NCBI RefSeq assembly: GCF_964194155.1
Contig: NC_135901.1
Coordinates: 5,518,001-5,582,000, forward strand
Length of the DNA: 64,000 bases
From: Cetorhinus maximus
Taxonomy: Eukaryota
Reading direction: 5' to 3'
The notes beneath the pieces were generated by a model, which worked only from the letters and a program-made list of their open reading frames with translations, was not told where the DNA came from and searched no databases. This document shows positions 5,701 through 62,676 of the stretch, piece by piece. The first letter of the stretch is position 1; each line of letters starts with the position of its first letter. A program made the position numbers and the translations under genes.

Positions 5701-6003
5701 AAGAAACTGGAATTGTCTGTTCTGAATTTCTATCCTTTACTGACTTTTGTAAACTCCTTTTACAGGATACTTGAACAGGAAGATTTGCTGACAGGAAACT
5801 CAAAGAAAACATCACGTCAAAATCTGACAGATTCACTCAATACATCAGGAGCTGGATATCATTGAATCTTTAATATAGAAGGAGAAATGTTTTACCAATT
5901 GCACAGCCTGAAAAACCATTGCACCATTCACAGCGAGGACAAATTGTGTGGATGAGGTTTGAACTGACCATCCAACATGGACAGCCACAAGGACACCAGC
6001 ACC

Positions 6004-6762
6004 ATGGTGAAACCGTGGAAATGTGGGAACTGTGGGAAGGGATTTGGTTCCCCATCAAAGCTGGAAATTCATCAACGCAGCCACACTGGGGAGAGGCCAT
6101 TCACCTGCTCCGTGTGTGGGAAGGGATTCACTCATTCATCCAGCTTTCTGAGACACTAGCACATTCACACTGAGCAGAGTTCAGTCATCTGCTCCGTGTG
6201 TGGGAAGGCAATCGGTCATTCATCAAACTTTCTGAGGCACCAGCAAACTCACAGTTTAGAGAGGCAGTTCACATTCTCTGTGCGCGGGAAGGGATTCACT
6301 CAGTCATCCTACCTGCTGACACACCAGCGCATTCACACAAGGGAGAGTCCATTCATCTGTTCCTTGTGTGGAGAGGGATTTAACCGATTATCCAGGCTTC
6401 TGACTCACCAGAGCATTCACACTGGGGAAAGTCCATACACCTGCTTTATCTGTGGGAAGGAATTTAATCGGCCATCCAAACTACTGACACACCAACGAAT
6501 TCACACTGGGGAGAGGCCATTCACCTGCTCCATGTGTGGAAAGGGATACACCAATTCATCTGACCTGTTGACACATCAGCGAGTTCACACTGGCGAGAGG
6601 CCATTCACATGTTCCATGTGTGGAAAAGGATTCATTCGGTCATCCCACCTTCTGACACATCAACTTGTTCATACTGATCAGAGACCTTTTAAATGTTCTG
6701 ACTGTGAGAAGACCTTTAAAAGTGAAAAGGATCTGATTACACACCAGCGAGTTCACGAGTGA
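6004..6762 (+). pseudogene. C2H2 zinc-finger locus 1 (9 finger units), probable pseudogene
   Basis: accATG at 6004; in-frame TAG at 6157-6159 in finger 2; the same frame continues to TGA at 6762; finger 4 has lost both Cys; acceptor AG at 5764-5765. Confidence 0.8.
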
Positions 6763-6859
6763 CTATGGGGATTGAAATCTGGTTACTGTTGCTGTTAATC
6801 CTGTTCAGGATTGAATTCTTTCATTCTGACAGCTGGAGTTTGTTTCTGCTGAAATATAA

Positions 6860-11194: not shown

Positions 11195-11365
11195 CAAAAT
11201 GATGCAGAGTTTCAGCCAATGAGGGAGATCCTGGTTAGGCCCCGCCCCTCATTCACTCCAATTGGCTGGAGGGCCAGCCGCACCCCTTTGGTCCTGCAAC
11301 CTCTTGCTATTGGTTCAGAGCTGCCGTCAATCACCCAGGCATTGTGATGGGAGCATGCGCAGTGT
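11195..11365 (+). promoter_or_regulatory. ZNF promoter module type I (CCAAT, GC box, CCAAT/ATTGG, GTCAATCA, NRF1-like)
   Basis: CCCCGCCCC at 11240, CCAATTGG at 11258, ATTGG at 11309, CTGCCGTCAATCA at 11321, GCATGCGCAGT at 11353. Followed by a putative donor CCG/GTAAGA at 11469, a YY1-like CCGCCATCTT at about 11643 and GCGCATGCGC at about 11663. Confidence 0.7.
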
Positions 11366-12319
11366 GGTTGCTGGACATCAGTGCGCAGGTGCAATCCCGC
11401 CTCGAGTTTGGAGCATGGGCAGTGTATGAGGGCGAAGGAAAGCTGCTTGTTTGTCAGGTCCGCAGCCGGTAAGATAAAGGGCGGAATTGCAGGAGAGATG
11501 CAGCCGGCGGGTGGACGGGCAGGTTTCGTAAACACTTTGAGCCGTTCTGAAGCCAGAATAACAAGCTACCGGTTCCTCGCTGGTATCTGTGGGCGGCAGT
11601 TGCCCCGATCCGCGTTCCTCGGTGAGAGGCCCGGATTAACGACCGCCATCTTGTGCAGCAGGGCGCATGCGCGGTCATCCCTGCCCCTGTCAGCAGGAGG
11701 AGAGAATATTGTGCATTTCTATCCTGGACTGACAGGGATGGAGTTTGGAAAATGATTAATTCATTGATTTTATTGTCAGTCTGCAGACAGGAGCCGGAGA
11801 ACTGAACCCAGGCAGAGGAGAGGGAGGGAGAAAACTGGGAGTGGAGGAAAGAAATGGTGGAGATGGGTTTGGATTTCAGCCCAGGGAGGAGGGAGAGTGT
11901 GTGGGACGGGAATTTACAGCTTTGGGGGAACAAGAGAGAAAACAATATTCCATTAAAACTAGAATTGTCTGTTCTGAATTTCCATCCCGGACTGACAGTG
12001 ATGATTTTTATAAACTCGTTTCCCAGAGTATTAGAAGGGAAGGATTTGCAGATGTGAAACTCAAACCAAACATCTTCTGACAGAGTCACTTGATTCACCA
12101 GGACCTGAATATTCTCAGACTTTGAATGTGGAAGGAGAAATGTTTGTCTGTTCTGTCAGTGGGGAAAGATACTGAACTTCAGTGTCACTGGATAAACACC
12201 GAGGCACACACACACACACCCAAGTGAGAGTGTTCAGTGAACTGACTGTGGAAAGAGCTTTAACCAGTTAAACAGCCTGAAAAAGCATCACATCGTTCAC
12301 AGTTTGGAAAACCATACAC

Positions 12320-13054
12320 ATGTTCTGTGTCTGGACAAGGTTTCAACTAATCATTCAACCTGGAGAGACACAAGGACACCCACACTATGGAGAACTGTGG
12401 AAATGTGAGGACTGTGGGAAAGGATTCAGTTACCCATCCCTGCTGGAAAACCATCGACGCAGTCACACAGGGGAAAGGCCATTCACCTGCTCTGTGTGTG
12501 GGGAGGGATTTACTCAGTCATCTGGCCTTTGGTCACACCAGCGAATTCACACTGAGGAGAAGCTATTCAGCTGCACTTCCTGTGGAAAGAGGTTCAGGCA
12601 CTCTTCAGCACTCACTGTACAACAATGCACCCAAATTGGGGAGAGGCCGTTCACCTGCTCCGAGTGTGGGAAGGGATTCACTCAGTCATTCCATCTTCTG
12701 ACACACCAGCGAGTTCACACTGGAGAGAGGCTGTTCACTTGCACTTCCTGTGGAAAGAGTTTCAGACAGGCATCCTCCCTCATTTTACACCAGCGAGTTC
12801 ACACTGCGGAGAGACCGTTCACATGCTCCGTTTGTGGGAAAGGATTCAGTCGGTCATCCAACCTCACTGCACACCAGCGAGTTCACACTAGGGAGAGGCT
12901 GTTCACTTGCTCGCTGTGTGGGAAGGGATTTGCAAAGTCTTTCAACCTGCTGACCACCAACGCACTCACATTGAGAAGAGGTTATTCAACTCTCGGTGTG
13001 TGGGAAGGGATTCACTCAGTCACGATGCCTCCTGAGACATCAGCAAGTTCATAA
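12320..13054 (+). CDS. C2H2 zinc-finger locus 2, degenerate (5 intact fingers; possibly a pseudogene)
   Basis: 244-aa ORF. The family-typical ATG (12387) is out of frame owing to a 1-nt deletion, finger 3 lacks both His, and there is a frameshift in finger 7. Acceptor AG at 12025-12026. Confidence 0.6.
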   Translation: MFCVWTRFQLIIQPGETQGHPHYGELWKCEDCGKGFSYPSLLENHRRSHTGERPFTCSVCGEGFTQSSGLWSHQRIHTEEKLFSCTSCGKRFRHSSALTVQQCTQIGERPFTCSECGKGFTQSFHLLTHQRVHTGERLFTCTSCGKSFRQASSLILHQRVHTAERPFTCSVCGKGFSRSSNLTAHQRVHTRERLFTCSLCGKGFAKSFNLLTTNALTLRRGYSTLGVWEGIHSVTMPPETSASS

Positions 13055-15756: not shown

Positions 15757-16692
15757 TTGTGCTTCCTGTCCAGTATCCCCCTCATCCATGGACTTTCTGT
15801 TTTACCAACTGGGGGAAACAAAATGCCCGTTCACTGATTGGTCTCGATGGCGGCTGGTTTATCCAGAATGCCCTGTGGGTCAGAAGGTCCCCTATCAATG
15901 AGAACAGGAACCCAGAGCGCCAGCGTGGGGACCGGGCTGTGCTCTGAGGCAGGGGCACAGCTGGGCGATGTTACTGAGGTGGAAATGGGTGGTTTTAGTG
16001 ATTTGTAGTCAGAAGCTCAGCTTGGGCTGAAACATGACAACAAGATTGTGAACAGTCTGGTTCAGCCTCAGAGACTGCAAGAGGGATGGAGTCGGTGGTT
16101 AGGGAGTGGAGACAATGGCTTTCATCTTCCCAACATTTAAATGGAGGAAATTTCTGCTCATCCAGTACTGGATGTCAGACAAGTTAGGACAGTGTGTGAG
16201 TTGGAGGTGATGGTGTTCATTGACACCTGTTACCTTCATACTTCTAGGTAGTGGATGTTGAGGGTTTGGGATATTCTGCCAAAGTTCTGGTTGAGCTGAA
16301 GATGTATTAAACACATCTTCACCCCCTGCACCTCCCACCTCTCTCTTTCATCCCATGGAGGCCAGAGTCTTGTGTAGACCCAGACCAGGTGACAGGTTCC
16401 ATTCCCTGAAGGACATTAGTGAACCAGTTGGGTTTTTATGACAATCCGGCAGTTTTCGTGGTCACTTTTCCCTCGTGCCGGCCCCACAAATTACCAGATT
16501 CATTCAGCTCAATTTCACAACCTGCATTTGTGTTTTTGTGGATTCTCTCTCACACCTTTTTTTCTGTTTTAAATCAATTTCACAGGGTATTAGAAGGGGA
16601 TGATTTGCAGTCGGGAAACAGAAACAAAACATCACAGCAGAATCTGACATTCGCTCGATTTATCATAACCTGAATATCATTTGATTTTGAAC

Positions 16693-18486
16693 ATGGAAGG
16701 AAAAAGTACCATTCACAGTGGAGAGAAATCGTACATGTGTTCTGTGTGTAGACGAGGCTTCAACCGATCATCTGGCCTGTCAAGACACCAGCGCAGCCAC
16801 ATCGGGGAGAAACCATGGAAATGTGGGGACTGGGGGAAGGGATTCAGATTCCCGTCAGAGCTGGAAGAGCATCGGCGGAGTCACACTGGGGAGAGGCCGT
16901 TCACCTGCTCAACGTGTGGGAAGGGGTTTACTCTTTCAAGCTACCTGCTGAGCCACCAGCGAGTTCACAGTGAAGAGAGACCTTTTAAATGCCCAGACTG
17001 TGGGAAGTGCTTTAAAAGTTCCTGCGAGCTGATGTCCCATCAACGTGTTCACACTGACGAGAGACCGTTCAGGTGCTCTCAATGCAGGACTGGGTTCTGG
17101 CGATCATTTCAACTCACTGTACACCAGCGAATTCACACTGGGGAGAGGCCATTCACCTGCCCTCAGTGTGGGAAGGGATTCACTCAGTCATCTCACCTGC
17201 TGACACACCAGCGAGTTCACACTGGGGAGAGGCCATTCACCTGCCCCCAGTGTGAGAAGGGATTCACTCAGTTATCTAGCCTGCTGACACACCAACGATT
17301 TCACACTGGGGAGAGGCCATTCACCTGCCCTCAGTGTGGGAAGAGATTCACTACCTCATCCAAGCTGCTGACACACCAGCAAATTCACACTGGGGAGAAG
17401 CCATTCATCTGCCCTCAGTGTGGGAAGAGATTCACTACCTCATCCAACCTGCTGGCACACCAACGAATTCACACTGGGGAGAAGCCATTCATCTGCCCTC
17501 AGTGTGGGAAGGGATTCACTCAGTTATCTAGCCTGCTGACACACCAACGAATTCACACTGGGGAGAAGCCATTCACCTGCCCTCAGTGTGGGAAGGGGTT
17601 CACTCAGTCATCTCACCTGCTGACACACCAGCGAGTTCACACTGGGGAGAGGCCATTCACCTGCCCTCAGTGTGGGAAGGGATTCACTCAGTCATCTCAC
17701 CTGCTGACACACCAGCGAGTTCACACTGGGGAGAGGCCATTCACCTGCCCCCAGTGTGAGAAGGGATTCACTCAGTTATCTAGCCTGCTGACACACCAAC
17801 GATTTCACACTGGGGAGAGGCCATTCACCTGCCCTCAGTGTGGGAAGAGATTCACTACCTCATCCAAGCTGCTGACACACCAGCAAATTCACACTGGGGA
17901 GAAGCCATTCATCTGCCCTCAGTGTGGGAAGAGATTCACTACCTCATCCAACCTGCTGGCACACCAACGAATTCACACTGGGGAGAAGCCATTCATCTGC
18001 CCTCAGTGTGGGAAGGGATTCACTCAGTTATCTAGCCTGCTGACACACCAACGAATTCACACTGGGGAGAAGCCATTCACCTGCCCTCAGTGTGGGAAGG
18101 GGTTCACTCAGTCATCTCACCTGCTGACACACCAGCGAGTTCACACTGGGGAGAGGCCATTCACCTGCCCTCAGTGTGGGAAGAGATTCACTACCTCATC
18201 CAACCTGCTGACACACCAACGAATTCACACTGGGGAGAGGCCATTCACTTGCCTCCAGTGTGGGAAGGCATTTATTAATTCATCCCACCTGCTGACACAC
18301 CAACGAATTCACACTGGGGAGAAGCCATTCACCTGCCCCCGTTGTGGGAAGGGATTCACTACCTCATCCAAGCTGCTGACACACCAACGAGTTCACACTG
18401 GGGAGAGGCCATTCATCTGCCCCCATTGTGGGAAAGGATTCACTACCTCATCCAACCTGCTGACACACCAGCGAGTTCACAAGTAA
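16693..18486 (+). CDS. C2H2 zinc-finger protein, 21 fingers, 597 aa (locus 3)
   Basis: Intact ORF from aacATGG at 16693 with TGE(R/K)PF linkers, ending HQRVHK*; acceptor AG at 16584-16585; conserved 3' UTR with AATAAA at about 18611. Confidence 0.92.
17132..18183 (+). repeat. 504-bp (6-finger) tandem duplication within the ZNF array
   Basis: Fingers 6-11 equal fingers 12-17; identical off-frame ORFs at 17334 and 17838 are offset by 504 bp. Confidence 0.9.
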
Positions 18487-19042: not shown

Positions 19043-22000
19043 CCCATAGAACCATAGAAAAGTTACAGCACCGGAGGCCATTCGGCCCATCTTGTCCATG
19101 CCAGCCCGAGGACACCCAGGTGCTCTTTCTAATCCCACCTTCCTGCACCTGGCCCATAGCTCTGTAGCTTACAGCACTTAAGGTGCAGATCCAAGTACTT
19201 TTTAAAAGAGCTTAGAGTTCCTGCCTCTACCACCAACGTGGTCAGCGAATTCCAGACACCCACTGCCCTCTGCGTAAAAAAGTTCTTCCTCATGTCCCCC
19301 CTATACCTTCTGCCACTTATCTTGAATCTATGTCCCCTGGTTTTAGAATTCTCCACCAAGGGAAACAATTTTATCCTGTCCACTCTATCTATTCCCCTCA
19401 TCATTTTGTACACCTCAATCAAGTCACCTCTCAGCCTTCTTTGTTTAAGGAAAATAACCCCAACCTATCCAATCTCTCCTCGTAGCTACACTTTTCTAAC
19501 CCTGGCAACATTCTTGTAAACCTCCTCTGCACTCTCTCCAGAGTTATTATGTCCTTCCTGTAATGTGGTGACCAGAACTGCACACAATACTCCAGTTGTG
19601 GCCTCACCAGTGTTTTATACAATTCCAACATTATATCCTTACTTTTATATTCTATACCTCTGCCAATGAAGGAGAGCATTCCATATGCCTTCTTTACAAC
19701 CTTGTCTACCTGAACTGCTGCCTTCAGGGACCTGTGTACTTGTAGGCCAAGATCTCTCACTTCATCTACCCCTCTTAGTATATTCCCATTTATTGTGTAA
19801 TCCCTGTAACTGTTTGACCTCCCTAAATGTATGACCTCACACTTCTCTATGTTAAAATCCATCTGCCACTTTACCGCCCACTGCACCAACCCATCTATAT
19901 CGTTTTGGAGATTATGGCTATCCTCTACACTATGCACTGCTTGGCCAATCTTTATGTCATCGGCAAATTTCCCAATCTTTCCCCCAACGTTCACATCCAA
20001 ATCGTTAATATATAACACAAACAGCAAGGGTCCCAACACTGAGCCCTGTGGAACACCACATGAGACAACTTTCCATTCGCAAGGGCATCCATTGACCATT
20101 ACCCTTTGTTTCCTGTTACAAAGCCAACCTTTTATCCAGTTTGCCACATTACCCTGAATCCCACGGGCTTTTACTTTCCTGACCAGTCTGCCATGTGGGA
20201 CCTTGTCAAATGCCTTGCTAAAATCCATGTACACAACATCCACTGCACTACCTTCATCAACCCTTCTTGTCACTTCCTCAAAAAATTCAATCAAATTTGT
20301 GAGGCAAGACCTTCCTTTAACAAATCTATGCTGACCATCCCTGACTGGTCCATACCTTTCCACCTGACAGTTAATCCAATCTCTCAGGATTGATTCTACT
20401 AATTTGCTCACTGCTGATGTAAGACTAACTGGCCTATAATTGTTTGGCATTTCCTTTGATCCCTTTTTAAACAATGGAACTACATTTGCATTTCTCCAGT
20501 ACCTCCCCTGCATCTAGTGAAGATTGGAAAATCAACCTCAGAGCATCTGCTATCTTCTCCCTGACTTCCTTCAGCAGACTCGGAAACAATCCATCTGGCC
20601 CTCGTGACTTATCAGCTTTCAAGGATTTCAACCCTTCGAGTACTTCCTCTCTATGACTATCCCGTCCAATATCTCGCAGTGTTCGTCCTGGACTACTCTA
20701 TCTACATCCTCCCTTTCCTTTGTAAACACGGAGACAAAATATTCATTCAAAACCCTTCCCACAGCCTCTGCATCCACACACAAGTTTCCATCTTCATCTC
20801 TGATAGGTCCCACTTTTTCCTTAACTAACCTTTTAGCATTAATGTATTGGTAAAACATCTTTGGGTTATCTTTAACTTTACTTGCTAATCTTTTTTCATG
20901 CCTTCTCTTTGATTTCCTTATTTCCTTTTTTACTTCGTCTAGGCTATCTGCAGTGCTTACTTCTTTGTGCCTATCGTACACTTCCTTTTTCTGTTTGATC
21001 TTCCCCTGTATTCCCCTAGACAACCAGGGTGGTCTAGATTTGGCAGTACCACTCTTATTTTTGTAGGGGACATGTCTACTTTGTACAATTAGGATCTCGC
21101 TTTTTAGTGCTTCCCACTGGTTTTCCACTGTTTTATCCTCCAGCAGTGCTGTTCAGTCCACCTCAACCAAGTCCCTTTTCATTTCTGCAAAATTTGCCTT
21201 CCCCCAGTTCAAGACTTTTGCTCCTGCCTTATCTCTGTATCTCTGTTCTTTTCCATGGTAATGCTAAATCTAACTGAATTGTGATCACTGTCCCTGATAT
21301 GGTCACCAACTGTCACTTCACCCACTTGCCCTTCTTCATTCCCCAAGACTAAGTCTAGAATTGCATCTCCTCTCATTGGGTTTATCACTAATTGGTTAAA
21401 AAAATTTTCTTGGACACATTGCATGAAGTTTTCTCCCTCAGTTCCCATTATATTGTTTGAATCCCAGTTGATATTAGGATAATTGAAGTCTCCGACTATT
21501 ATTGCCCTCTTGTTCTTACAAGCAGAAATTTGCCTACATATTTGTTCTTCTATCTCCCTTTCACTATTTGGGGGTCTGTAGTATACTCCCAGTAGTGTGA
21601 CTGCCCCTTTTTTATTTCTAAGCTCAATCCATAAAGCCTCGTTTGTTGATCCATTAAGTGTTTCATCCCTTCTCACAATTGGAATTGATTCTTTAACCAT
21701 TAGTGCTACCTGCACCCCTCCCCCATCCTTTTTTAATCTCCTACTCTATCGTGTCTGAAGACTCTATAACCAGGGATATTAAGCTGCCAGCTTTGTCCCT
21801 CCTTTAGCCAGGTCTCCGTTATAGCAATGACATCCTGCTGCCATGTGTCTACCTGTGCCCTTAACTCATCTACCTTGTTTGTAATACTCCTTGCATTGAA
21901 GTTTAAACAGTTTAACCCAGTCAATTTCCCTTGCTGGACACTTTGTAAACTTTGCTTCTCCTGTAACTCCATGTCTATCACAACGTCCCTAGCTAATGTT

Positions 22001-22983
22001 CTACCTCCACTTTTCTGATCTGAATCTGACCTATCTGATCCTACTCCTGGGATCCCATCCCCCTGCCACACTAGTTTAAATACTCCCCAACAGAACTAGC
22101 AAAAGCTCCCACAAGGACACTGGTCCCAGCTCTGCCTGGGTGCAGCCTGTCCGGTTTATACACGTCCCACCTTCCCCAGAACCAGTCCCAGTGCCTCAAG
22201 AATCTGAATCCCTCCCAACTACACCATCTCTCCAGCCACGTATTCATTTGGCCTATCCTCTTATTCCTGCTCTTGCTAGCAGGTGGAACAGGGAGTTATC
22301 CTGAGATTACTACATTTGAGGTCTTATTTTTAAATTTATTTCCGAGCTCCCTAGATTCTGCTTTCAGGCCCTCATCCCTCTTATTACCTATGTTGTTGGT
22401 ACCAATGTGTACCACGACCACTGGCTGTTTACCTTCCCTCCCCAGAATGTCCCGCAGCCGCTCTGTAACATCCTGGACCCTGGCACCAGGGAGGCAACAT
22501 ACCATTCTTGATTCACGTTTGCGGTCACAGAAACGTCTGTCTGTGCCCCTAACTATTGAATCCCCTATCACAATAGCCCTGCCACTTGTTTTCCTCCTGC
22601 CCCTCTGAGCAGCAGAGCCACCCACGGTGCCATGAACTTGGCTGTTGCTGCTTTCCCCCGAGAGGCCATCCCCCCCAACAGTATCCAAAGCGGTATATCT
22701 GTTAGAGAGGGGGATGACCACAGGGGACTCCTGCACTACCTTCCTGAGTCTTTTACTGTTCCTGATGGTCATTCTGCCTGTGTAATCTTCACCTGCGGTG
22801 TGACCACCTCGCTAAACGTGCCATCCATGACTTGCTCAGCATCGCGGATGCTCCACAATGAGTCCACCCGCAGCTCCAGCTCTGAAACCCGATTCGCTAG
22901 AAGCTGCATTTGGACACACCTTCCTCACACATGGTCGCCATGGACGCTGGAAGCGTCCCTCATTTCCCACATCCTGCAGGAGT
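19043..22983 (-). mobile_element. near-full-length CR1 LINE (ORF1 zinc finger + SGNH esterase; ORF2 APE endonuclease + RT), frameshifted
   Basis: ORF1 RAIVIGDSIVRG...VVVHIGTNN; endonuclease FNARSI, ITETWL, VGDFN, SDH; [15 protein letters not shown]; 3' tandem TTCTATGG repeats at about 19043-19060. Confidence 0.93.
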
Positions 22984-28450: not shown

Positions 28451-29194
28451 ATGGTTCACATCAGAGGATGGGGGAGGAGGGACAAGAAATAAGACTTAAT
28501 TTATAAAAAATAAATAAATTTGGGCTCAAATCAATGAGGATCTGATCTGTGTTTGGGAAACTGTTAACAAATGGCCCCTTGTAAAACATGATCTCCATTT
28601 GTAGAATTTATTAAAAGGATACAGAGAATTATCCAACACTTTATTTAGATTTCAGCCCAGGGAGGGGGGAGAGTGTGTGGGACGGGGATTTGCAGCTTTG
28701 GGGGAACAAGAGAGAAAAAATGTTCCATAGGAACTAAAATTAACTGTTCTTCATTTCTATGCCGTGCTTACAATGAGGACTTTTGAAATCTCTGCTTACA
28801 GGGGCATTAGAAGGGAGAATTTATACACTGGTAACTCAAACAAAACATCACATCAAGATCTAACAGAGTCACTTGATTCATCAGGAGCAGAATATCACCG
28901 GCCTTTGAATGTGGAAGGAGAAATGTTTGCCTGTTCTGACTGTAGAAAAAAAAAAATCACTCATCTATATGACTGGAAAAGCACTGAGACACACTCACCG
29001 GTGAGAGTGTTCCAGTGCACTGACTGTGCAAAGAGCTTTACCTAGTTACACAACCTGAAAAAAAAATTACAGCATTTACCGTGGGATGTTGTGAATTCCA
29101 CGTACACGTGTTTTCTCTGTGTGTGTGTGTGTGTGTGTGTGGACAAGCATTCAACTGATCATCCAATCTGGAGAGATACAAGGGCACCGGCACC

Positions 29195-29780
29195 ACGGAG
29201 AAATCGTGGAAATGTGGGGACTGTGGAACTGGATTCATTTCCCCATCCCAGCTGGAAATTCATTGGCGCATTCACACTGGGGAGAGGCCGTTCACCAGCA
29301 CCGATTGTGGGAAGGGTTTCACGCAGTTATCAAATCTTCTGACACACCAGCGTGTTCACAGTGGCTTGAGGCCGTTCAGCTGTTCCGTGTGCGGGAAGGG
29401 ATTCATGAGCTCATCTAACCTGGGGACCCACCAGCGAGTTCACACTGGGGAGAGGCCATTCACCTGCTCTGTGTGGGAAAGGCTTCACTCAGTCATCTGC
29501 TCTGCTGACACATCAACTTGTTCACAGTGATCAGAGATTGTTTAAATGCTCTGACTGTGAGAAGAGTTTCAAAGGACCAATAAATCTGCTGAAACACCAG
29601 CGAGTTCACACTGGGAAGAGGCTGTTCACCTGCTGTGTGTGGGAAGAGATTCACTCGGTCGCATAACCTGCACAGACACCAGCGAGTTTACACTGGGGAG
29701 AGGCCTTTCAACTGCCCCATCTGTGGGAAGGGATTCACTTTTTCATCTAACTTGAAGAGACACCAGAAATTTCACATATG
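29195..29780 (+). pseudogene. C2H2 zinc-finger pseudogene (locus 4, about 7 finger units)
   Basis: Family start codon mutated to ACG at 29195; frameshifts near 29470 and 29635; acceptor AG at 28800-28801. Confidence 0.85.
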
Positions 29781-29847
29781 ACAACAGGGGTTGGATTCTG
29801 CTGTTATGAATCACATCCAGGTTTCAACTAGGTTCATTCTGATAACT

Positions 29848-37462: not shown

Positions 37463-37806
37463 TCCCCGCCCTCCAAGCTCGCGCGCGGTTTCCAGGCTCC
37501 CCCCGGTTCACAATCTGCACCCGCCCTCCGAGCTCGCGCGCGGTTTCCAGGCTCCCCCGATTCACAATCTCCACCCGCCCTCCGAGCTCGCGCGCGGTGT
37601 CCAGGCTCCCCCCCGGTTCACAATCTCCACCCGCCCTCCGAGCTCGCGCGTGGTTTCCAGGCTCACCCCCGGTTCACAATCTCCACCCGCCCTCCGAGCT
37701 CGCGAGTGGTTTCCAGGCTCCCCCCCCCGGTTCACAATCTCTACCAGGCCTCCGAGCTCGTGCGTGGTTTCCAGTTTCCAGGCTCCCCCCCGGTTCACAA
37801 TCTCCA
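37463..37806. repeat. CpG-rich minisatellite, about 55-bp unit, about 6 copies
   Basis: Unit CCACCCGCCCTCCGAGCTCGCGCGCGGTTTCCAGGCTCCCCCCGGTTCACAATCT; CACAATCT recurs at 37509, 37563, 37619, 37675, 37733 and 37796. Confidence 0.92.
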
Positions 37807-37874
37807 GCCGCCGGCTTCATTTCTCACCCTTCGTGATCTCAACTCGACCGCTCCTTCTTCCAGCTCCGGTTCTA

Positions 37875-38020
37875 GTACTGCGCATGCTTCAGTCGCAGCC
37901 TAGCCCCGCCCCTCTATCACTCCAATTGGTTGGAGGGCAAACCGCACCCGCTCGGTCCTCTAGTCCCGCCTCTCTCTTCCTATTGGCCCGGAACTGCTGT
38001 CAATCAGCCGGGCATTGTGA
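37875..38020. promoter_or_regulatory. ZNF promoter module type I (probable promoter of locus 5)
   Basis: ACTGCGCATGC, CCCCGCCCC, CCAATTGG, ATTGG at 37982 and CTGTCAATCA (reverse of TGATTGACAG). Confidence 0.7.
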
Positions 38021-38152
38021 GCTGTCAGGTGAGAGTTCACTGTCGGGAGCGGGTTAATAAACCCCGGGCAGGGGGGCGGGGTTTACAAATTCCGAATGCG
38101 GCCCCAGATCCGAATATTAAACAATGAACATTCTCCACTCTCACTATCCGCC

Positions 38153-41475: not shown

Positions 41476-41477
41476 CA

Positions 41478-44579: not shown

Positions 44580-44835
44580 GTATTTAACACAAAGCTGCTG
44601 ATTTGAATTTTATCCACAATACTATGCCCTATAACTGGGCTGGAGTTTATTAACATTAGCAGAAACAGACCCCAATGAACATAGTTCAGTTCTGTTTGTG
44701 ATTAACAGCAAAATCCAATCACGATAGTTACTTGTGAACTACCTGGTGTGCCAGTAGGTGGGATGACGAGTGAATCCCTTCCCACACTCAGAGCAGGTGA
44801 ATGGCCTCTCCTCAGTGTGAAGAACTGGTGTTTCA
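44580..44835 (-). pseudogene. ZNF relic: last finger plus family 3' UTR, truncated by CR1 (locus 7)
   Basis: Minus strand reads [15 protein letters not shown]...HK* followed by the conserved UTR. Confidence 0.75.
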
Positions 44836-45540
44836 GTGGGCTGGAAGTGTATTCAAAATCATGAGGGGTCTGGCAGGGTTGATGGGGAGAATGTGATGAG
44901 TTCCCCTTCTGACAGGATCTAAAACGAGAGGGCACAGATTTAAAGTAGTTGGTAAAAGAAGCAAAAGTGATACGAGGAAAACCTTCTTCACGCAGCAAGT
45001 AGTTAAGGTCTGGAATGCACTGCCTGGGAGTGTGGTGGAGGCAGGTTCAATTGAAGCATTCAAGAAGGAATTAGACAGTTACTGGAAAAGGAAGAACGTG
45101 CAGGTAGAAGGCGGGAGAACGGCTCTAAATCAAATGACCATCCAAAGAGCCGGTGCAGTCATGATGGGCTGAATGGCCTCCTTTTGCGCTGAAACAAATC
45201 TGTGCTCCTGGCCACTTCAGAGGCTGAGGATGTTTCTCCTTATGGGAGAGACGACAACTAGGGGCCGCTGTTTAAAAATAAGGGGTCTCCCATTTATGAC
45301 AGAGATGAGAAATTTGTCCTCTCACAGGGTCGTCAATTGTGGAATTCTCTTCACCAGAAAGCAGTGGAGGCTATTGAATAATTTTGAGGTTGAGTTAATT
45401 CTTGATTGACAGGGAGTCAAAGATTATGGGGGTAGACAGGAAAGTAGAGTTGGGGCCTCAATTACATCAGCTATGATCTTATCACATGGCCGAGCAGGCT
45501 CACAGGCCTGAATGGCCTACACCTGCTCCTAATTCATATG
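44836..45540 (+). mobile_element. two CR1 3' fragments
   Basis: FFTQ-VV-VWNALP motif and CR1 3' UTR sequences. Confidence 0.75.
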
Positions 45541-46019: not shown

Positions 46020-46694
46020 TCACTTGTGAACACGCTGGTGTGTCTGCAGGTGGGATGACTGAGTGAATCCCTTCCCACATACAGAGCAGATGAATGGCCT
46101 CTCCCCGGTGTGAACTCGCTGGTGCCTCTGTAAGCTGGATAATCGCGTGAATCCCTTCCCACACTGAGAGCAGGGGAATGACCTCTCCCCAGTGTGAAGT
46201 TGCTGGTGTAGCAGCAGGTTGGATGACTGGGTGAAATCCTTCCCACACACAGAGCAGGTGAACGGCCTCTCCCCGGTGTGGACTCGCTGATGTGTCTGCA
46301 AGTTGAATAACCGAGTGAATCCTTTCCCACAATGAGAGCAGGTGAATGGCCTCTCCCCGGTGTGAACTTCCTGGTGTGTTAGCAGGTTGGATAACTGGGT
46401 GAATCCCTTCCCACACTCAGAGCAGGTGAACGGCCTCTCTCCAGTGTGAACTCGCTGGTGTCTCAGCAGGGTTGATGAATCACTGAATCCCTTGCCACAC
46501 TGAGAGCAGGTGAATAGCCTCTCCACTGCATGAACTCGCTGGTGTGCGTGCAGCTGCCATGAACCACTGAATGCCTTCCCACACTCACAGCAGGTGAATG
46601 GCCTCTCCCCAGTGTGACTGCGTTGATGAATTTCCATTGCAGACGGGCATCGGAATCCCTTCCCACAATCTCTACATTTCCATCGTTTCTCCAT
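46020..46694 (-). CDS. C2H2 zinc-finger protein, 8 fingers, 224 aa (locus 8)
   Basis: accATGG at 46694, intact fingers, ending HQRVHK*; acceptor at 47046-47047; putative donor GTGAGT at 48056. Confidence 0.88.
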
Positions 46695-48149
46695 GGTGCG
46701 AGTGCCCTTGTGTCTCTCCAGGTTTGACAATCAGTTGAAGCCTCGTTCACACACAGAACCTGTGTACGATCTCCCTGGCTGTGAAAGCTGAAATGTTTCT
46801 TCAGACTGTATAACAGTTCATAGCTCTTTCCAAAGCCAGTGCATTGGAATACACTCACTCGGGTGTGTGAGAATCGGTGCTTTTCCAGTCACACTGATGT
46901 TTCAAATATTTTGAAGCAGACATAACAGACAAATATTTCTTCTAGATTCAAAGGCTGCTGATATTCCGATCCCGATGAATCGAGTGGATCTTGACGTGAC
47001 CTTTGGTTTGAGCTTTCTGACTGCAAATCATCCACTTCTAATGTCCTGTAAAAGGAGTTTACAAAAGTCATCACAGAAAGTCTGCGATAGAAATTCAGAA
47101 CAGACAATTCTAGTTTCTATGGAACATTCATTCCCCTCTCATTCCCCAAAAGCTGTAAATCTCCATCCCCAACATGCTCCCTGCATTTTGAGCTCTCAGG
47201 AATGTTCAGACAGATTCAAAATGTTAGCTCTGTTTCTCGCTCGACATATGCTGCCAGACCTGCTGAGTTTTTTTGCACCATTTTCTGTTTTTACTCCCTT
47301 CATTCTCACTCTGTTATATCTCATTTATACACTCCCAATTCTCCTGAAGGAGCCAAAAAGATTGTAATACTTGAATAGCGATACAGAGGGAATATGAGGA
47401 AGAACTTTATTTAGGCAGCAAGTAGTCATGGCCTGGAATTCGATGCCTATGAGGATGGCAGAACCGGAGATGATCAATGGTTTCAAAATGAAATTGGATA
47501 GGGAGTTGAAAGAAAAACTTTCAGGGGAACGAGGATACAGATGGAGAATGGGATCGACTGGATTACTCTACAGAATGTCAGCATGGATCTGAGTTTCCAA
47601 TTGGACACCATCTGTGCTGTAATGAGTTTATGACTGGAAATATATAATGCAGCTACAGTATTATTACAGGACTAGAAATAATAATAAATGAACTTTAATA
47701 CAGAATAATAAATAACTAGACATTTCTCTGTTGTTACGATCCCTGTGGAAACCAATAACCTTAAAATAAACAAATTCCCAGACAACCCCAACGGAATAAA
47801 CAGAAGGACAAGGTTTTATTTTTTAAAAACGATTCCGGTAACAATCAAACTAAATTCAACATAAATGAAGCCTGCATTAACAGACAACTAGCATTTCAAT
47901 AGACCGGATAAATATGACTTTAAACAGCTGGAGCATCAGCCTGGTCCACAAAATCACCAGCATTTCCCCCCTCAGCATATTTGGCACTAATTCCAGTTAC
48001 AGAGTCCCGCAACTCTCTGTATTTCCCAGGGGAAGGAAAGAAAGTGATTTACTCACAGATGTTGGACCGAGGAAGAAGTTTTAATGTTTATGAAGCTAAA
48101 AACAAATGCTGTGCCGTTTAAAGTCAAATTGCATTGGAAGAAAATGAGG

Positions 48150-49330
48150 AGAAGACATTTTACACAGTCCCCTCCCGCACCCCCATAGCCGGCAGCCCAG
48201 CACGCAGGCGCAGAAAGCGTTTTCTGTCCGAAGCAGGCGCAGTGCGGCTGCCGTCAGCGGTCGCTCTCGATCTCTTTTTGGACCAGCCGGTCGCCGTAGA
48301 CAGAGGGGGGGAGGGGGAATTCGCCGAGCGGCTTCTCGCTCTGGCCGGAGCCGTCAGCCGGTTGCCTGGAAACTTTGGCTCGAGGAGGTTAGGGGGAGGG
48401 GGAACAATGGGAGGGGGAGGGGGAACAATGGGAGGGGGAGGGGGAACAATGGGTGGGGGAGGGGGAGGGGGTACAATGGGTGGGGGAGGGGGAACAATGG
48501 GTGGGGGAACAATGGGTGGGGGAGGGGGAACAATGGGTGGGGGAGGGGGAACAATGGGTGGGGGAGGGGGAACAATGGGTGGGGGTGGGGGTGGGGGAGG
48601 GGGAACAATGGGTGGGGGTCGGGGAGGGGGAACAATGGGTGAGGGAGGGGGAGGGGGAACAATGGGTGGGGGAACAATGGGTGGGGGTGGGGGAACAATG
48701 GGTGGAGGTGGGGGTGGGAGAGGGGGAACAATGGGTGGGGGAGGGGGAACAATGGGTGGGGGAGGGGGAACAATGGGTGGGGGTGGGGGAGGGGGAACAA
48801 TGGGTGGGGGAGGGGGAACGATGGGTGGGGGAGGGGGAACAATGGGTGGGGGAGGGGGAACAATGGGTGGGGGTGGGGGAGGGACTCCCGTGTCCGCGCG
48901 CCTGGTCCGCAAACTGGAACCCGAGGACGTCACCGCGGAGCACAGTCAGACCTATTGGCTGACTCAGGCGTCACAATGATTCAGAGGAACGTACCCAGTT
49001 CACATTGAGAGCAATGGACTTGATGGTCAAAGTCTCTCCCCCGAACACGCGCTCGGGTTACTTTACCTCATTGTGGTCGGACCGAGGTTAGCCAATGGGA
49101 GGAGCTGGACGACCGGAAGGTGGATGGTCCTCCAACCAATCAGAGCGCGGGCACTGTCGCATTGCCGACACGGAGCTTCCCCCATTGTTTGAATGCGGAT
49201 GTTGGACAATGAGCTTTTAAACCTGTCCATTACTGCCCAGCAAAGCTGCTGATGCTGTTTCTCTCTCTGAATGAGGATTTAGCTTCACACACACGAAAAC
49301 TTTCTCCCCAGTCTCGTGTCAAATACCTGT
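48150..49330. promoter_or_regulatory. CpG-rich bidirectional promoter between loci 8 and 9
   Basis: Head-to-head genes; outward-facing CT/GTGAGTAAA donors at 48056 (minus) and 49329 (plus); reversed type I module with CCAAT boxes at about 49085-49150. Confidence 0.65.
48391..48884 (+). repeat. G-rich minisatellite (GGGTGGGGGAGGGGGAACAAT)n with G-quadruplex potential
   Basis: More than 20 units, mostly 21 bp, with 6-bp indel variants. Confidence 0.95.
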
Positions 49331-50824: not shown

Positions 50825-51432
50825 CCTGCATAATGATTTCAAAGGCCCCTGTGCCCTGGACAGGAAGCAGTGCACATGGATCTGCTGATCAGCATGAAAT
50901 GGCACCTTCAGGAGATTTGGGAGGTACAGCAGAGTGAGAATGGAGGGACAGTGTGTGGGACAGAGAGTTACTGCTTCTGGGGAATATGAGAGAAAGAATG
51001 TTCCGTAGAAACTAGAATTATGTGTTGTGAATTTTTATCCTGCACTGACAATGATGACTTTTGTAAACTCCTTTTACAGGATATTAGGAGAGGACTTGTA
51101 TCTGGGAAACTCAAACCAAATATCGCATCAAGATTTATTGGATTCATCAGGACCTGAATATCATCAGCCCTTTGAATGTGGAAGGAGAAATGTTCCCCTG
51201 TTCTGTCTGTGGGAAAACATTTCAAGCATCAGTGTGACTGGAAAAGCAATGAGACACAGACAACTGAGTGACAGTGCTCCAGTGCACTGACTGTGAAAAG
51301 AGCTTTAAACAGTTACACAGTCCGAAACAACATTACGCCATTCACAGCGGGGAGAGATTGTACACATGTTCTGTGTGAAGACGAGGTTTCAACTGAGCGG
51401 TTAACCTGGAGGGACACAAGGACACCTGCACC

Positions 51433-52275
51433 ATGGAGAAACCGTACAAATGTGGGGACTGTGGGAAGGGATTCTGCACCCCATCTGCGCTGGAAACTCA
51501 TCAACGCATTCACACTGGGGAGAGGCCTTTCACCTGCTCTGAGTGTGGGAAAGCATTCGCTCAGTCATCCACCCTGCTGAAACACCAGCGAGTTCACTCC
51601 GGGGAGAGGCCTTTCGTCTGCTCTGAATGTGGGAAGGGATTCAGTAATTCATCTCACCTGCTGACACACAAGCGAGTTCACACTGGGGAGAGGCCATTTA
51701 TCTGCTCTGAGTGTGGGAAGGCATTCACTCAGTCATCCAACCTGCTGATGCACCAGCGAGTTCACACCAGGGAGAGGCCATTCACCTGCCCTGAGTGTGG
51801 GAAGGGATTCAGCGATTCATCTGCCCTCCTGACACACCAGCGGGTTCACACCGGGGAGAAGCCTTTCATCTGCTCTACATGTGGGAAGGGATTCCCTCAG
51901 TCATCCAACCTGCTGACACACCAGCGAGTTCACACCGGGGAGAGGCCTTTCATCTGTTCCGAGTGTGGGAAAGGATTCACTCAATTATCCCACCTGCAGA
52001 CACACCAACGTGTTCACAATGGGAAGAGGCCATTCACTTGCTCTGGATGTGGGAAAGGATTCATTCAGTTATGCAACCTGGTGATGCATCAGCGAGTTCA
52101 CACCAGGGAGAGACCGTCCATCTGCTCTGAATGTGGGAAGGGATTCAGAGATTCATCCACCCTGCTGAGACACCAGCGAATTCATACTGGTGAGAGGCCA
52201 TTCACCTGCTCTATGTGTGGGAAGGGTTTCAGTCAGTTATCCAGTCTGCTGAGACACCAGCGAGTTCACAAGTAA
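51433..52275 (+). CDS. C2H2 zinc-finger protein, 10 fingers, 280 aa (locus 9)
   Basis: accATGG start, MEKPYKC..., intact fingers, ending HQRVHK*; acceptor AG at 51078-51079. Confidence 0.9.
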
Positions 52276-58240: not shown

Positions 58241-60895
58241 AACTGCATCCAATTGGTTGTAAAATTACAGGGATTTGACTGACTATTTCTCAAGCAGGAA
58301 AACTCTCAGTTTCTGCTGCTGCTGCTTCTCACCTTTGGGCAGCTTTGTGGTTTCCTGGCGGGCTTTTCAAAAAAATTGGAATTGCAAAGCTGCCTGAAGG
58401 TCGGAGGCAGCAGCAGCGACTCGTGAAATTGACCTGACACTGACAGACTGGCTTCGAAAATATCAGAACTCTCAGCCTGACAGATCTGTTTTTTTTAAGC
58501 TGGTCTGTCAGGTCTGTAGCTCTGGCTGCTCAGTGAGGATGATGCAAAACTGTTTGAAACAACGAGCCCAGCCCACACCTACTCACCTCCCCCACCCACA
58601 ACATCCCAGGGCCTGCTGTTTGGCACTGTCTGAACCCCACTCTCCCGGGCCTTGATCCCTGGTGTCTTGGGCCAATATTTATCCTTCAATCAACATAACC
58701 ACAAACATATCATTTGGGTCATTATCACATTTCTGTTTGTGGGATCTTGCCGTGTGCAAATTGCCTGCCGAGTTTCCAAAATTACAACAGTGACTACATT
58801 TCAAAAGTGGCTGTAAAACGCTTTGAAACATCCTGTGGTTGTGAAAGGCGCTATAGAAATGCAAATCCTTGTTTAATTGTCAGCAAATTTGGATGCATTA
58901 CACTCAGTCCCTCATCTCGATCATTCATAAGGATTGAGACCTCATTTTGTGTATGAAGCTCCTGGTTGACACCTTTCCGAATGCTTTTTGAAAGTCCAAA
59001 TACACCACACACAAGATGAGGAATTATTTGTTTTAAAAACACAGCGAATTGTTACAATTTGGAATCCACTGCCTCAAAACCGACTGGAAGTAAATTCAAC
59101 TGTATCGTTCAAAAGGGAACTGGACAGATTCTTGAAAGAAAAAGAAAATTGCAGGGCAATGGGATTAATGGGAAAACTCTTTCAAAGAGCCTCCAATTGC
59201 CTCCTACTGTGCTCTATGAGCCTCATGTGCATTTAAAGGATCTTCAATTGTGGGTGACATATTAAAGCAATCAGTGCCTCCTCTTCTCTGTATGTTTAGT
59301 TTAACACTTAAATCTCCCCTTCACATTCTCTGAAGTGGCAGATGGAGTTTAATACAGGGAAAGTTGAGGTGATGTAATTTGGCAGAAGGGACAGGTAGAG
59401 GCAACACAGATGTAATGGCACAGTTTCAAAGAGTGAGCAGGGACAGAGGGACATGGGGGTTCATGTGCAGAGATCTTTGAAGGTGGCAGGACACAGTGAG
59501 AGAGGAATTAGCAAAGCATGTGGGATCTTGAGCTTCAGAAATAGAGAGCTTGGGTTGGATCTTCGGTACCGAGGTGGGTAGCTTGGATCTGGAAATTTTC
59601 CAATTGCCGGACCTGCCTCGGTTTAAAAGTTCCCAAATGTTGTGATCTTCACTCGGGGGCGGGGGGAGGGGGTGGTGCTTTGAGGTGGGCGGTTATGGAT
59701 CGAGTTGGTTGCTGTGCCACCGGAATCGGAGCTTAGGCGGGTAACAGGATGCCCGAGCACTGAGGTGTGCTGGTTAAAAGGCCCGCCTCCATTCTCTGGG
59801 ACTTGATCCCAGTTGTATTGTAACCTTTTGGAATCTCTGGTCTTCGCCAGTGGCACCCACATGCCAAGAGAATGTTTTAAAAATAAATTAATAGACATGA
59901 TTATTTGGAATAATTGCCCACCCACCAGGGGCAGCAGTCCAACACAATTGCTCCTCACTAAATGCAAGTAAGCCAATTGTAAGCCCCCATCCCACCCCAA
60001 GGCCCTTATACACTCCATGCCAGCTCATGCCAATTCTTGCCCTGGCATGGAGAGCAAGGAATTTAAAAAAGACTTTCGATCATGACAGTTAAACAGACCC
60101 TATCCACCCAACAAGAGTCTTTGCGTCTACTCCATAAAGTCGTGACTTTCACACTATGAATTAACTCCCTTGCAGAAGGCAAAATGGTGCCTGTTTGAAC
60201 TCAGTGCTGAGTTCAGATGGCTCTGCTGAGTTCAGGTTCAACTTGGGTGTGAATCAAGCCCTGCCCCTGTCCCCTACTGGCAAAAATTGGATCTGTGAAA
60301 AATGGGAGTGGGACTTCCGCATCCGGGTCCCACCCACGATTTTTGAAGGTAGGTGAGTCTTTCTGACTCTGAAAATCCAGGTTATTGAGTAAAGAAGCAG
60401 GGAAGTGACATTGAACCATCATAAAGCTCTGATACTCTGAAGCCAAAATGGACATGTCCAGGCATTGCAACATTTTTGAATTCAACTAAATGCTGAGGTC
60501 ACGTGAGGATTCTGGTGAATTCTCCATGGCAACGACTTGACCAATCACAGCTGACTTGCCAACTGATGAGCACCCTTTTCTCACGCAGTATAAATAGTTG
60601 CTCCCTTTGAAATTTGGTGTTCTTGTGTCTGTCCTGATCAGTGCAATATGAAAACTTCGAGAGCATGTCTCTTTTTGCAGCAATAAATGACCTTCATCAG
60701 CTTCTGTGGAACATTTCAGTGGAAATGTGCACTCCCAGACCACTGGAAACAAAGTTGTAAGACTGGCCAGTACAGCAGAAAGAAACCCTTTGACCTTCCC
60801 ACTTCACCAACTGTCAGAATGAACATGGTTCAGTCTAGAATGTGATTGACAGCAGCAATCACAGCAGAATCCAACCCCTGTAATCACTGGTGAAC

Positions 60896-61642
60896 TCACT
60901 GGTGTCTCAGCAGGTGAGATTTCCGAGTGAATCGTTTCCCACACACGGAGCAGGTGAACGGCCTCTCCCCAGTGTGAACACCCTGGTGTCGCAGAAGGGT
61001 GGATGAATCACTGAATCCCTTCCCACACTCACAGCAGATGAAAGGCCTCTCCCCAGTGTGAACTCGCTGGTGTGTCAGCAGGTTGGTTAACTGAGTGAAA
61101 CCCTTCCCACACATGGAGCAGCTGAAAGGCCTCTCCCCAGTGTGAACTCGCCGGTGCTTCCGCAAGATGGATGGATCAGCAAATCCCTTCCCACACTCAG
61201 AGCAGGTGAACGGCCTCTCCCTAGTGTGAGCTCGCTGGTGTCGCAGAAGGTTGCATAATCGACTGAATTGCTTCCCACATACAGAGCAGTTGAATAATTT
61301 GTCCCCAGTATGAACTCGCTGGTGTATCAGCAGGCTGGATGAATCACTGAAACCTTTCCCACATTTGGAGCAGGTGAACGGTCTCTCCCCCGTGTGAACT
61401 CGCTGGTGTGTCCGCAGATTGGAAGAGTTAGTGAATCCCTTCCCACAATCAGAGCAGGTGAATGGCCTCTCCCCGGTGTGAAGTCGCTGGTGTATCTGCA
61501 GGTGGGATAACTGAGTGAATCCCTTTCCACAATCAGAGCAGGTGAACGGCCTCTCCCCAGTGTGAATGCGGCGATGAGATTCCAGTGCAGATGGGGACCG
61601 GAATCCCTTCCCACATTCCCCACATTTGCATGGTTTCTCCAT
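60896..61642 (-). CDS. C2H2 zinc-finger protein, 8 complete fingers plus a truncated 9th, 248 aa (locus 10)
   Basis: accATGG start; premature TGA at the HQR position with the ancestral stop at 60884-60886; acceptor at 61997-61998; putative donor G/GTAAAG at 63349. Confidence 0.85.
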
Positions 61643-62676
61643 GGTTCAGGTGTCCTTGCATTCCTTGAGGTAAGATGTTTAACTGAAGCCTCATCCACAA
61701 ACAGTACACGTGTTCGGTCTCTCCCGGCTGTGAATGATGCAATGTTTCTTCAGTCTGTGTATCTGGTTAAAGTTTTCTCCACAGTCAGTGCATTGGAACT
61801 CTCTCACATGTGTGTACGCGAGCTTCTTGGTGATTTTCCAGACACAGTGACGTTTAAAATCTGTTGAAGCAGACAAAACAAACATTTCTCTTTCTAGTTC
61901 AAAGGCTGATGATATTGAGCTCCCATAAATCAAGTCAGGTCTCGATGTAATGTTTGGTTTGCGATTTCTGTCTGTAAATCCTCCATTTCTAATATCCTGT
62001 AAATGGAGTTAGTTTACAAAAGTCATCACTGTCAGTACAGGATAGAAATTCAGAACACACAAGTCTACTTTCTATGGAACCTTCTTTCCTCTTTCATTCC
62101 CCAAAGACAGTCAATCTCGATCCCACATATTCTCCATCCAATCTCAATCCGCTGACCTAACAAATCCATGCTCATCGCTTCCTGTCCAGGACACAGAGAC
62201 CTGAAAATGTTCAGGCAGGCTGCTAGACATGGAACTCACTGTGTGGTGGAAGTGGAGATGGTCAATGATATGAAAATGAAACTGGGTGTGCACTTGAAGA
62301 AAATAAACTTGCTGGGGAACGGGGATATAGAAGAAGAATAGGACTGACTGGGTTGCTCTACAGAGAATCAGCATGGATTTGAATTACTGAATGGACTCCT
62401 TCTGTGCCATTATGACTGACTCAAAATATATGACATAGCACAGTGCTATGTTACAAGACTAGAAATAATAATAAATTAACTTTATTACAGAATCATAAAT
62501 AACATATCTAATATATACCATATAATAACACCAGGCATATCTCTGTCCTACATTACTTTACTGTCCCCTTAAATGTCAGCCATCTCCTGGGGAATCCACC
62601 ACTTTAATTGTGAACATGAGGAAAGAGGCCATCCTTTTAGCCAGACAAATAAATGTGTCAAGCCGAGGGAGCAAAG

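What the first reader, a model, noticed from the sequence alone, without database searches (positions are those of the whole stretch)
5766..61996. Dense birth-and-death cluster of effector-less tandem C2H2-ZNF genes
Seen: about 10 loci in 64 kb on both strands, each with a single coding exon that is almost all fingers, no recognisable KRAB/SCAN/BTB/SET domain, varied recognition helices, and every decay stage from intact to single-finger relic, amid dense TEs. Established: tetrapod KRAB-ZFP clusters and lineage-specific fish ZNF expansions evolve this way and are linked to TE repression. Inference: a lineage-specific TE-surveillance repertoire working without a known repressor domain.
Basis: partly seen in the sequence, partly recalled or inferred. 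Interest (0 to 1): 0.7.

Follow-up and report, generated by a model that had tools for sequence, protein, structure and literature searches.

The report
Fingers-only regulator genes filling shark chromosome
This window is a slice of a likely shark chromosome carrying an estimated few thousand duplicated genes whose predicted proteins are only DNA-gripping zinc fingers with no known silencing domain; their DNA-reading tips diversify while one signature first finger stays conserved and may serve as a docking surface, but whether they police transposons is untested.

Summary
Observation confirmed: 10 C2H2 loci (4 intact, 1 truncated, 3 broken, 2 relics). They are not single-exon genes. Eight share a splice acceptor, and one contig of a probable RNA run joins an upstream exon to it. 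An upstream effector exon is excluded at that acceptor: 127 of 137 non-redundant paralogs have an in-frame stop between acceptor and finger ORF, and the leader evolves as non-coding DNA. The window samples a 65-Mb chromosome with about 3,700 (2,200-5,300) ORFs of five or more fingers; a KRAB search found one hit genome-wide, elsewhere. Births are block duplications of 29-41 kb, plus finger gain and loss. Contact positions -1/3/6 give dN/dS 1.59 (1.27-1.91) in the N-terminal block but about 1 in close pairs. A W/P/E signature finger is conserved on its non-contact face. Transposon targeting is untested, and repeat density is no higher than on other chromosomes. Effector-less expansions are known in bugs, and shark ORF counts are in a published supplement. 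The scan noted this same chromosome before in other windows.

The parts
5766..6762 (+). Z1: finger exon from acceptor; start codon 6004; stop in second finger (broken gene)
11330..11621 (+). CpG-rich promoter / first exon of Z2, with GT donor at 11622 (joined in one contig) and a second candidate donor at 11469
12027..13054 (+). Z2: finger exon, frame broken just after ATG 12387, several damaged fingers (broken gene, copied as such in the duplicated block)
16586..18486 (+). Z3: intact ORF, ATG 16693, 597 aa, 20 canonical fingers, homogenised array; its signature finger lacks the second Cys
19431..22811 (-). LINE retrotransposon remnant (reverse transcriptase, endonuclease, GDSL-like ORF1 piece; CR1-like by recall)
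28802..29840 (+). Z4: start codon lost, frameshifts (broken gene); promoter-like module near 28000-28400
34285..35425 (-). Z5: intact ORF, ATG 35322, 345 aa, 12 fingers; stop in the finger frame right after the acceptor
35818..35925 (+). one-finger relic with 3' flank
37300..38100 (-). CpG island, likely promoter / first exon of Z5, interrupted by a 56-bp tandem repeat
44733..44845 (-). one-finger relic with 3' flank
46020..47045 (-). Z7: intact ORF, ATG 46694, 224 aa, 8 fingers; dead fingers in the leader
48100..49200 (.). CpG-rich region between head-to-head Z7 and Z8, likely two-way promoter, split by a G-rich minisatellite (48392-48883)
51080..52275 (+). Z8: intact ORF, ATG 51433, 280 aa, 10 fingers; dead fingers in the leader
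60896..61996 (-). Z9: ATG 61642, 248 aa, premature stop in the last finger
63100..63600 (-). CpG island, likely promoter / first exon of Z9

Best explanation
These are spliced genes of a chromosome-filling, likely shark-wide C2H2 family whose predicted proteins are only zinc fingers, multiply by block duplication, diversify their DNA-contact residues, and likely act as sequence-specific binders of repetitive (transposon) DNA that would recruit a partner through a conserved signature finger instead of a separate silencing domain. Shown: anatomy, closed leader, block duplication, finger-number change, purifying selection on the fold. Moderately supported: diversifying selection at -1/3/6 and extra constraint on the signature finger's non-contact face. 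Inferred only: translation from the in-exon ATG, transposon targets, repression, partner docking.
For: Stop in the finger frame between acceptor and ORF in 127 of 137 non-redundant genes, 18 of 18 in the unbiased grid, 7 of 7 in the window; class A leader shows no codon periodicity (0.111/0.133/0.138) and 10 of 46 indels are multiples of 3; ATG context TTGAACATGG in 44 of 57; 92 of 137 ORFs end within 3 aa of the last finger. One contig of a probable RNA run joins a GT donor at 11622 to the acceptor, not listed for the DNA-like run. KRAB: 1 hit genome-wide, on C34; SCAN: 0 of the best 150 hits on C24. dN/dS in 36 independent pairs: helix Leu 0.08, core Phe 0.13, linker 0.37, contacts -1/2/3/6 1.15 [1.02-1.25]. 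Collinear first two fingers, 31 pairs: -1/3/6 1.59 [1.27-1.91]; seven non-contact positions 0.29 [0.18-0.43] in the signature finger against 0.62 [0.48-0.76] in the next finger, at similar synonymous divergence. The model is a canonical two-finger DNA-binding fold. ZNF number tracks retroelement number across animals independent of accessory domains (PMC10547256, parts 1-3 and passages read).
Against: No binding, ChIP, repression or protein data. In close pairs contact dN/dS is 0.85 [0.50-1.09] over whole arrays and 1.03 [0.53-1.31] in the first two fingers; it is 0.55-0.78 when only fingers at least 88% identical are kept, so finger shuffling or conversion may inflate it. The signature-finger contrast vanishes in the 17 close pairs (0.42 against 0.38). 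The youngest amplified Z3 copies have a signature finger without its second Cys, and 7 of 26 grid loci with three or more fingers show none. The broken Z2 is copied with its block. Repeat density is ordinary. 10 of 137 leaders are open, and some public shark gene models carry long N-terminal extensions, though these share nothing beyond the leader. The RNA support is one joined contig from a related organism in a run only guessed to be RNA; unspliced contigs cross the same acceptor.
Confidence: 0.5

Rival explanations
1. Mostly passive expansion: an unstable chromosome copies 30-40 kb blocks regardless of gene function; a minority of genes keep a fold constraint, contact residues drift near neutrality, and no arms race is involved.
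For: 22 of 26 near-identical Z8 copies keep a Z3-like gene 28.6-41.5 kb upstream on the same strand; 11 copies of the Z2-Z3 block are about 97-99% identical to the window over several kb, including the broken Z2; about half the window's loci are broken; contact dN/dS is about 1 in close pairs.
Against: Overall dN/dS 0.49, fold residues about 0.1; contacts 1.87 [1.45-2.29] in 14 more distant pairs; the same gene design occurs in other sharks and rays.
Confidence: 0.22
2. Functional, but not a transposon-silencing system: the bare arrays act by occupying DNA (competition, insulation, heterochromatin nucleation on repeats as genome stabilisers) or regulate host genes.
For: No effector domain. Wells et al. 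themselves call it open whether TE silencing is the main role and propose a genome-stabiliser role (PMC10547256, passages). Effector-less ZF271-like expansions in bugs did not correlate with repeat content (PMC6444547, passages).
Against: Fast change at contact residues and high turnover fit moving targets better than fixed host sites (inference).
Confidence: 0.2
3. A hidden effector exists: an unseen upstream exon is spliced in frame through another acceptor, as for KRAB or FiNZ genes.
For: The class A majority leader is acidic and nearly open; 10 of 137 leaders are open; only one exon-1 junction was observed. FiNZ has no similarity to known domains, so family searches would miss such an exon (PMC10547256).
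Against: 93% of leaders are closed, without coding signal; ATG contexts are conserved; annotated extensions in 12 shark and ray proteins share nothing beyond the leader and first finger.
Confidence: 0.08

Closest known systems
Cyprinid FiNZ-ZNF genes on zebrafish chromosome 4q (Wells et al. 2023, PMC10547256; parts 1-3, passages and parts of two supplements read)
   Same: Hundreds of lineage-specific tandem C2H2 genes on one chromosome region, two-exon layout, contact residues most variable.
   Different: FiNZ genes have a 28-aa coding exon upstream; here the frame is closed before the fingers. About 684 genes there, an estimated 2,200-5,300 ORFs here. TE repression was shown there by knock-down, not here.
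KRAB zinc-finger clusters of coelacanth, lungfish and tetrapods (PMC10380595, PMC11603059; passages read)
   Same: TGEKP-type linkers, clustered birth and death, finger gain and loss, fast contact residues.
   Different: No KRAB exon; a single KRAB hit in the genome, off this chromosome, about 11 kb from a 10-finger array (PRDM9-like by inference).
Hemipteran ZF271-like / APEZ subfamily (PMC6444547; passages read)
   Same: Fingers only, no other domain, tandem clusters, pseudogenes, no KAP1 partner known.
   Different: Insect, more than 115 proteins in clusters of 4-8, varied exon structure; here a vertebrate, thousands, one exon design and a signature first finger.
Cephalopod C2H2 expansions (PMC12513265; passages read)
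   Same: Lineage-specific expansion concentrated on a few chromosomes.
   Different: Linked there to neural expression; domain content was not stated in the passages I saw.
PRDM9 finger minisatellite (recalled; fold match)
   Same: Z3's array is homogenised (90% unit identity) and differs in finger number between copies.
   Different: No KRAB, SSXRD or SET part; variation is between paralogs, not shown between alleles.

Membership tests
KRAB-ZFP | N-terminal KRAB domain on an upstream coding exon | tested here: not met
   1 KRAB hit genome-wide among 150 of 152 candidates scored, on C34; frame closed after the acceptor in 127 of 137 genes
KRAB-ZFP | Tandem C2H2 array with canonical linkers on one exon | tested here: met
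KRAB-ZFP | TRIM28 recruitment and H3K9me3 at targets | not testable with these tools
   no protein or chromatin data; TRIM28 was not searched in this genome
FiNZ-ZNF | Conserved 28-aa acidic domain on an upstream coding exon, in frame with the fingers | tested here: not met
   no FiNZ profile was run, but any in-frame upstream exon is blocked at the shared acceptor; the leader lacks coding signal
FiNZ-ZNF | Concentration on one chromosome region | tested here: met
   21 of 44 evenly spaced C24 samples hold two or more fingers, 0 of 14 controls
SCAN-ZNF | SCAN domain fused to the array | tested here: not met
   none in the window's finger ORFs; 0 of the best 150 of 4,987 candidates on C24 (lower-ranked ones not scored)
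BTB-ZF / PRDM | BTB or SET domain fused to the array | tested here: not met
   none in the window ORFs scanned; no room in 6-15 aa N-termini; no genome-wide BTB or SET search was run
Rapidly evolving tandem ZNF families (TE arms-race type) | Purifying selection on the fold with excess change at -1/2/3/6 | tested here: inconclusive
   fold constraint met; contacts above 1 in all and distant pairs, about 1 in close pairs
Rapidly evolving tandem ZNF families (TE arms-race type) | Binding to and repression of TEs | not testable with these tools
   no motif predictor, TE library or ChIP data available
Effector-less tandem C2H2 expansions (ZF271-like / APEZ type, by design only) | No domain besides fingers; clusters; pseudogenes | tested here: met
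   common ancestry with the insect family not tested and not claimed

The most novel reading that the evidence does not exclude
Sharks and rays run a third vertebrate zinc-finger defence, with thousands of genes on one dedicated chromosome, in which the effector is built into the array: the W/P/E signature finger reads DNA on one face and docks a co-repressor on the other, so repression needs no KRAB or FiNZ domain.
Probability: 0.2. Interest if true: 0.8.

Novelty: new variant of a known kind. Interest (0 to 1): 0.5.

Why it matters
Sharks branch off before KRAB and FiNZ systems arose and carry among the largest ZNF counts on record (703-3,586 ORFs in seven shark and skate assemblies, PMC10547256 supplement). 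If these fingers-only proteins silence repeats, they show how such a defence works without a silencing domain, and the signature finger gives one small testable handle. If the expansion is passive, it is a counter-example to reading ZNF number as an arms race. Five searches listed no paper describing this family or chromosome; subscription journals are largely missing from that library, and three supplement files of PMC10547256 were not searched.

Tried and rejected
Homodimer prediction of the signature finger plus next finger with zinc: no answer, no evidence either way. No run on record as RNA was listed for the stretch; only runs guessed to be RNA, from related organisms. Laying them on 6 kb gave finger and repeat noise and no clear junction among the rows shown. 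Joints near 11680-11746 to about 12024 were rejected as splices: they lack GT-AG ends and similar ones stand in the DNA-like run. Contig depth steps up at the acceptor in three probable RNA runs and not in the DNA-like run, but contigs cannot show levels, so this is not counted. A tree-based count of substitutions was not obtained, so selection rests on pairwise counts only. Zero dN/dS at Cys and His is built into the finger pattern and is not evidence. SSXRD search found nothing, so the PRDM9 label of the C34 KRAB hit stays an inference. Exact look-up of five proteins: none in the collection. ESM Atlas, PDB sequence and fold searches returned only generic C2H2 proteins. Six GC-rich ORFs over promoter regions gave no Pfam family. 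ATGs in Z2's first exon give peptides of 4-67 aa without fingers, weak evidence because Z2 is broken. Local TE density as support for TE surveillance: rejected. Motif prediction against TEs was not attempted (no predictor or library).
Full report
1. Observation. Six-frame scanning finds 77 canonical C2H2 fingers and 7 ORFs with five or more fingers, in ten loci on both strands. Z3 (597 aa, 20 fingers), Z5 (345 aa, 12), Z7 (224 aa, 8) and Z8 (280 aa, 10) are intact; Z9 stops in its last finger; Z1, Z2 and Z4 are broken; two one-finger relics lie at 35.8 and 44.8 kb. Pfam lists only zinc-finger families for the seven finger ORFs, with two lists cut at 25 rows. LINE remnants are present, but 27% of the window matches a 130-kb library from other chromosomes, against 30% for control pieces and 21% for the C24 grid. 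The TE setting is therefore background.

2. Organism and scale. The window is G000:C24:5,518,001-5,582,000 in a 3.99-Gb genome. The most identical relatives of the Z8 N-terminus are shark proteins, so the genome is likely a shark's. C24 is 65.16 Mb. Of 44 evenly spaced 10-kb samples, 21 hold two or more fingers (258 fingers, 25 ORFs with five or more); 14 samples from other chromosomes hold none. Extrapolated: about 3,700 such ORFs (bootstrap 2,200-5,300), broken genes included. The best hits of two searches run from 0.9 to 64.7 Mb of C24, plus small contigs and a few on C22, C25 and C37.

3. Gene anatomy. All eight non-relic loci share a 3' splice acceptor followed by a homologous leader; CpG-rich promoter-like modules lie upstream of most. 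In a run guessed to be RNA, from a related organism, one contig joins 11622 to 12041 with 13 letters between; counting these letters puts the intron at 11622-12026 with GT-AG ends. It is not among the joints listed for the DNA-like run (33 further joints were not shown). Loose ends lie before 12028-12029 in four contigs each of two other probable RNA runs; unspliced contigs also cross the acceptor. So the genes are likely spliced from a short first exon.

4. Is an effector spliced in? Among 175 ORFs with five or more fingers, 169 were complete; 10 had no acceptor and 22 were duplicates, leaving 137. In 127 a stop codon lies in the finger frame between acceptor and ORF; 18 of 18 in the unbiased grid; 7 of 7 in the window. 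116 of the fetched loci were picked by likeness to Z3 or Z8, so the grid is the fair sample. In 57 class A genes (start M-E-G-K-S-T-x-H) the leader has no codon periodicity (mismatch 0.111, 0.133, 0.138) and 10 of 46 indels are multiples of three; 9 of 57 have no in-frame stop. All 54 class B genes (start M-E-K-P-W-K) have in-frame stops in the leader, which in the window's class B loci holds dead fingers. 92 of 137 ORFs end within three residues of the last finger. KRAB gives one hit in the genome, on C34 near a 10-finger array; none of the best 150 SCAN hits is on C24. Long N-termini in some public shark and ray models share nothing beyond the leader and first finger. The predicted proteins are thus fingers only.

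5. Birth and death. Z3's first 91 residues recur identically at 11 places and Z8's first 84 at 96% or more at 26 places. 22 of those 26 have a Z3-like gene 28.6-41.5 kb upstream on the same strand; 14 of 15 on C24, in both orientations. Eleven fetched copies match the window at about 97-99% over several kb, including the broken Z2, yet Z3's finger number runs from 10 to 20. Birth is by multi-gene block duplication, with fast finger gain and loss inside arrays. Copies on small contigs may be assembly duplicates.

6. Selection. 36 disjoint gene pairs were chosen by non-coding identity. dN/dS over 322 aligned fingers: all 0.49, linker 0.37, helix Leu 0.08, core Phe 0.13, other positions 0.56, contacts -1/2/3/6 1.15 [1.02-1.25]; 0.85 [0.50-1.09] in the 21 closest pairs, and 0.78 or 0.55 if only fingers at least 88% identical are kept, a filter that biases downward. 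In the collinear first two fingers (31 pairs) -1/3/6 give 1.59 [1.27-1.91]; 1.87 in 14 distant pairs and 1.03 [0.53-1.31] in 17 close pairs. The fold is under purifying selection; contacts evolve two to three times faster than other surface positions; positive selection is likely but not proven, since conversion between fingers could mimic it.

7. Signature finger. A finger with W before the first Cys, P at +1 and E at +5 occurs once per gene in 105 of 110 genes (106 fingers), as first or second finger in all but one case (biased sample, partly circular definition). In the grid, 19 of 19 P/E fingers carry the W, against 4 of 239 other fingers; 19 of 26 loci with three or more fingers have it first or second. 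It is present in 4 of 13 shark and ray proteins (P/E alone: 6) and in 0 of 75 other proteins (P/E alone: 1); three rows were set aside as possibly from this genome. Its contact positions vary freely while seven non-contact positions show dN/dS 0.29 against 0.62 in the neighbouring finger, with similar synonymous divergence, which argues against sequence copying alone. Against it: no contrast in close pairs, and the youngest Z3 copies lack its second Cys. The predicted fold is a canonical DNA-binding finger pair (pLDDT 92).

8. Mechanism. Shown: anatomy, turnover, fold constraint. Inferred: the proteins bind DNA by the usual helix code, sample new sequences by contact changes and finger shuffling, and most likely target repeats; any repression would need the array itself, the signature finger being the best candidate surface. 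I put this at 0.5, passive expansion at 0.22, a non-silencing function at 0.2, a hidden effector exon at 0.08.

9. Known systems. It works like KRAB-ZFP and FiNZ-ZNF clusters in layout and turnover but fails their defining domain test. Fingers-only clustered expansions are described in aphid and milkweed bug (PMC6444547, passages). Wells et al. list 703-3,586 ZNF ORFs for shark and skate assemblies in a supplement and include shark chromosomes in their notebook, but the main text does not mention sharks. KRAB-ZFPs are reported only from lobe-finned vertebrates, and a shark is said to have PRDM9 alone (PMC10380595, PMC11603059, passages). Tandem fingers can trigger ribosome collision and mRNA decay in zebrafish (PMC11620358, abstract only), which may limit output from these genes. 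PMC8455134 and PMC10208646 (passages) held nothing on this family.

10. Verdict. A real feature, a new variant of a known kind, not found described for sharks in five searches. The scan reached the same reading in other windows of this chromosome (8 of 75 fitting notes shown); that is not independent support. Interest 0.5.

Noticed in passing
window 17121-18481: Z3's array is 16 units at 90% identity with an internally repeated six-finger block; copies elsewhere have 10-20 fingers, minisatellite-like change between paralogs.
   Followed up: yes
window 48392-48883: G-rich 21-bp minisatellite (about 23 units) between the two halves of the likely two-way promoter of Z7 and Z8; could form G-quadruplexes (inference).
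   Followed up: no
window 37465-37812: CpG-rich 56-bp tandem repeat (6 units) just downstream of Z5's candidate donor.
   Followed up: no
window 11192-11372, 37877-38153, 41474-41643, 42832-42994, 63386-63529: A shared promoter-like module with CCAAT and GC boxes; the copies at 41.5 and 42.9 kb have no intact gene next to them.
   Followed up: partly
G000:C34:9123034-9123144 (L065) and L018:7301-8725: The genome's only KRAB hit, about 11 kb upstream of a 10-finger array on the same strand; PRDM9-like by inference, SSXRD not found.
   Followed up: partly
window leaders of Z7, Z8, Z9 (e.g. 51080-51432): Class B leaders hold dead fingers and several upstream ATGs (2-4 in 43 of 54 genes), which could dampen translation.
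   Followed up: partly
genome-wide: Nearly 5,000 SCAN-like candidates spread over many chromosomes, probably retrotransposon capsids (recalled link, not checked).
   Followed up: no
L127 (C25), L144 (C37), L149 (C22): Members of the same family with the same acceptor lie on other chromosomes.
   Followed up: no
window 38573-39397, 3141-3656: GIY-YIG-like ORF (Penelope-like by recall; no Pfam hit) and a zf-RVT piece (Tx1-like by recall).
   Followed up: no
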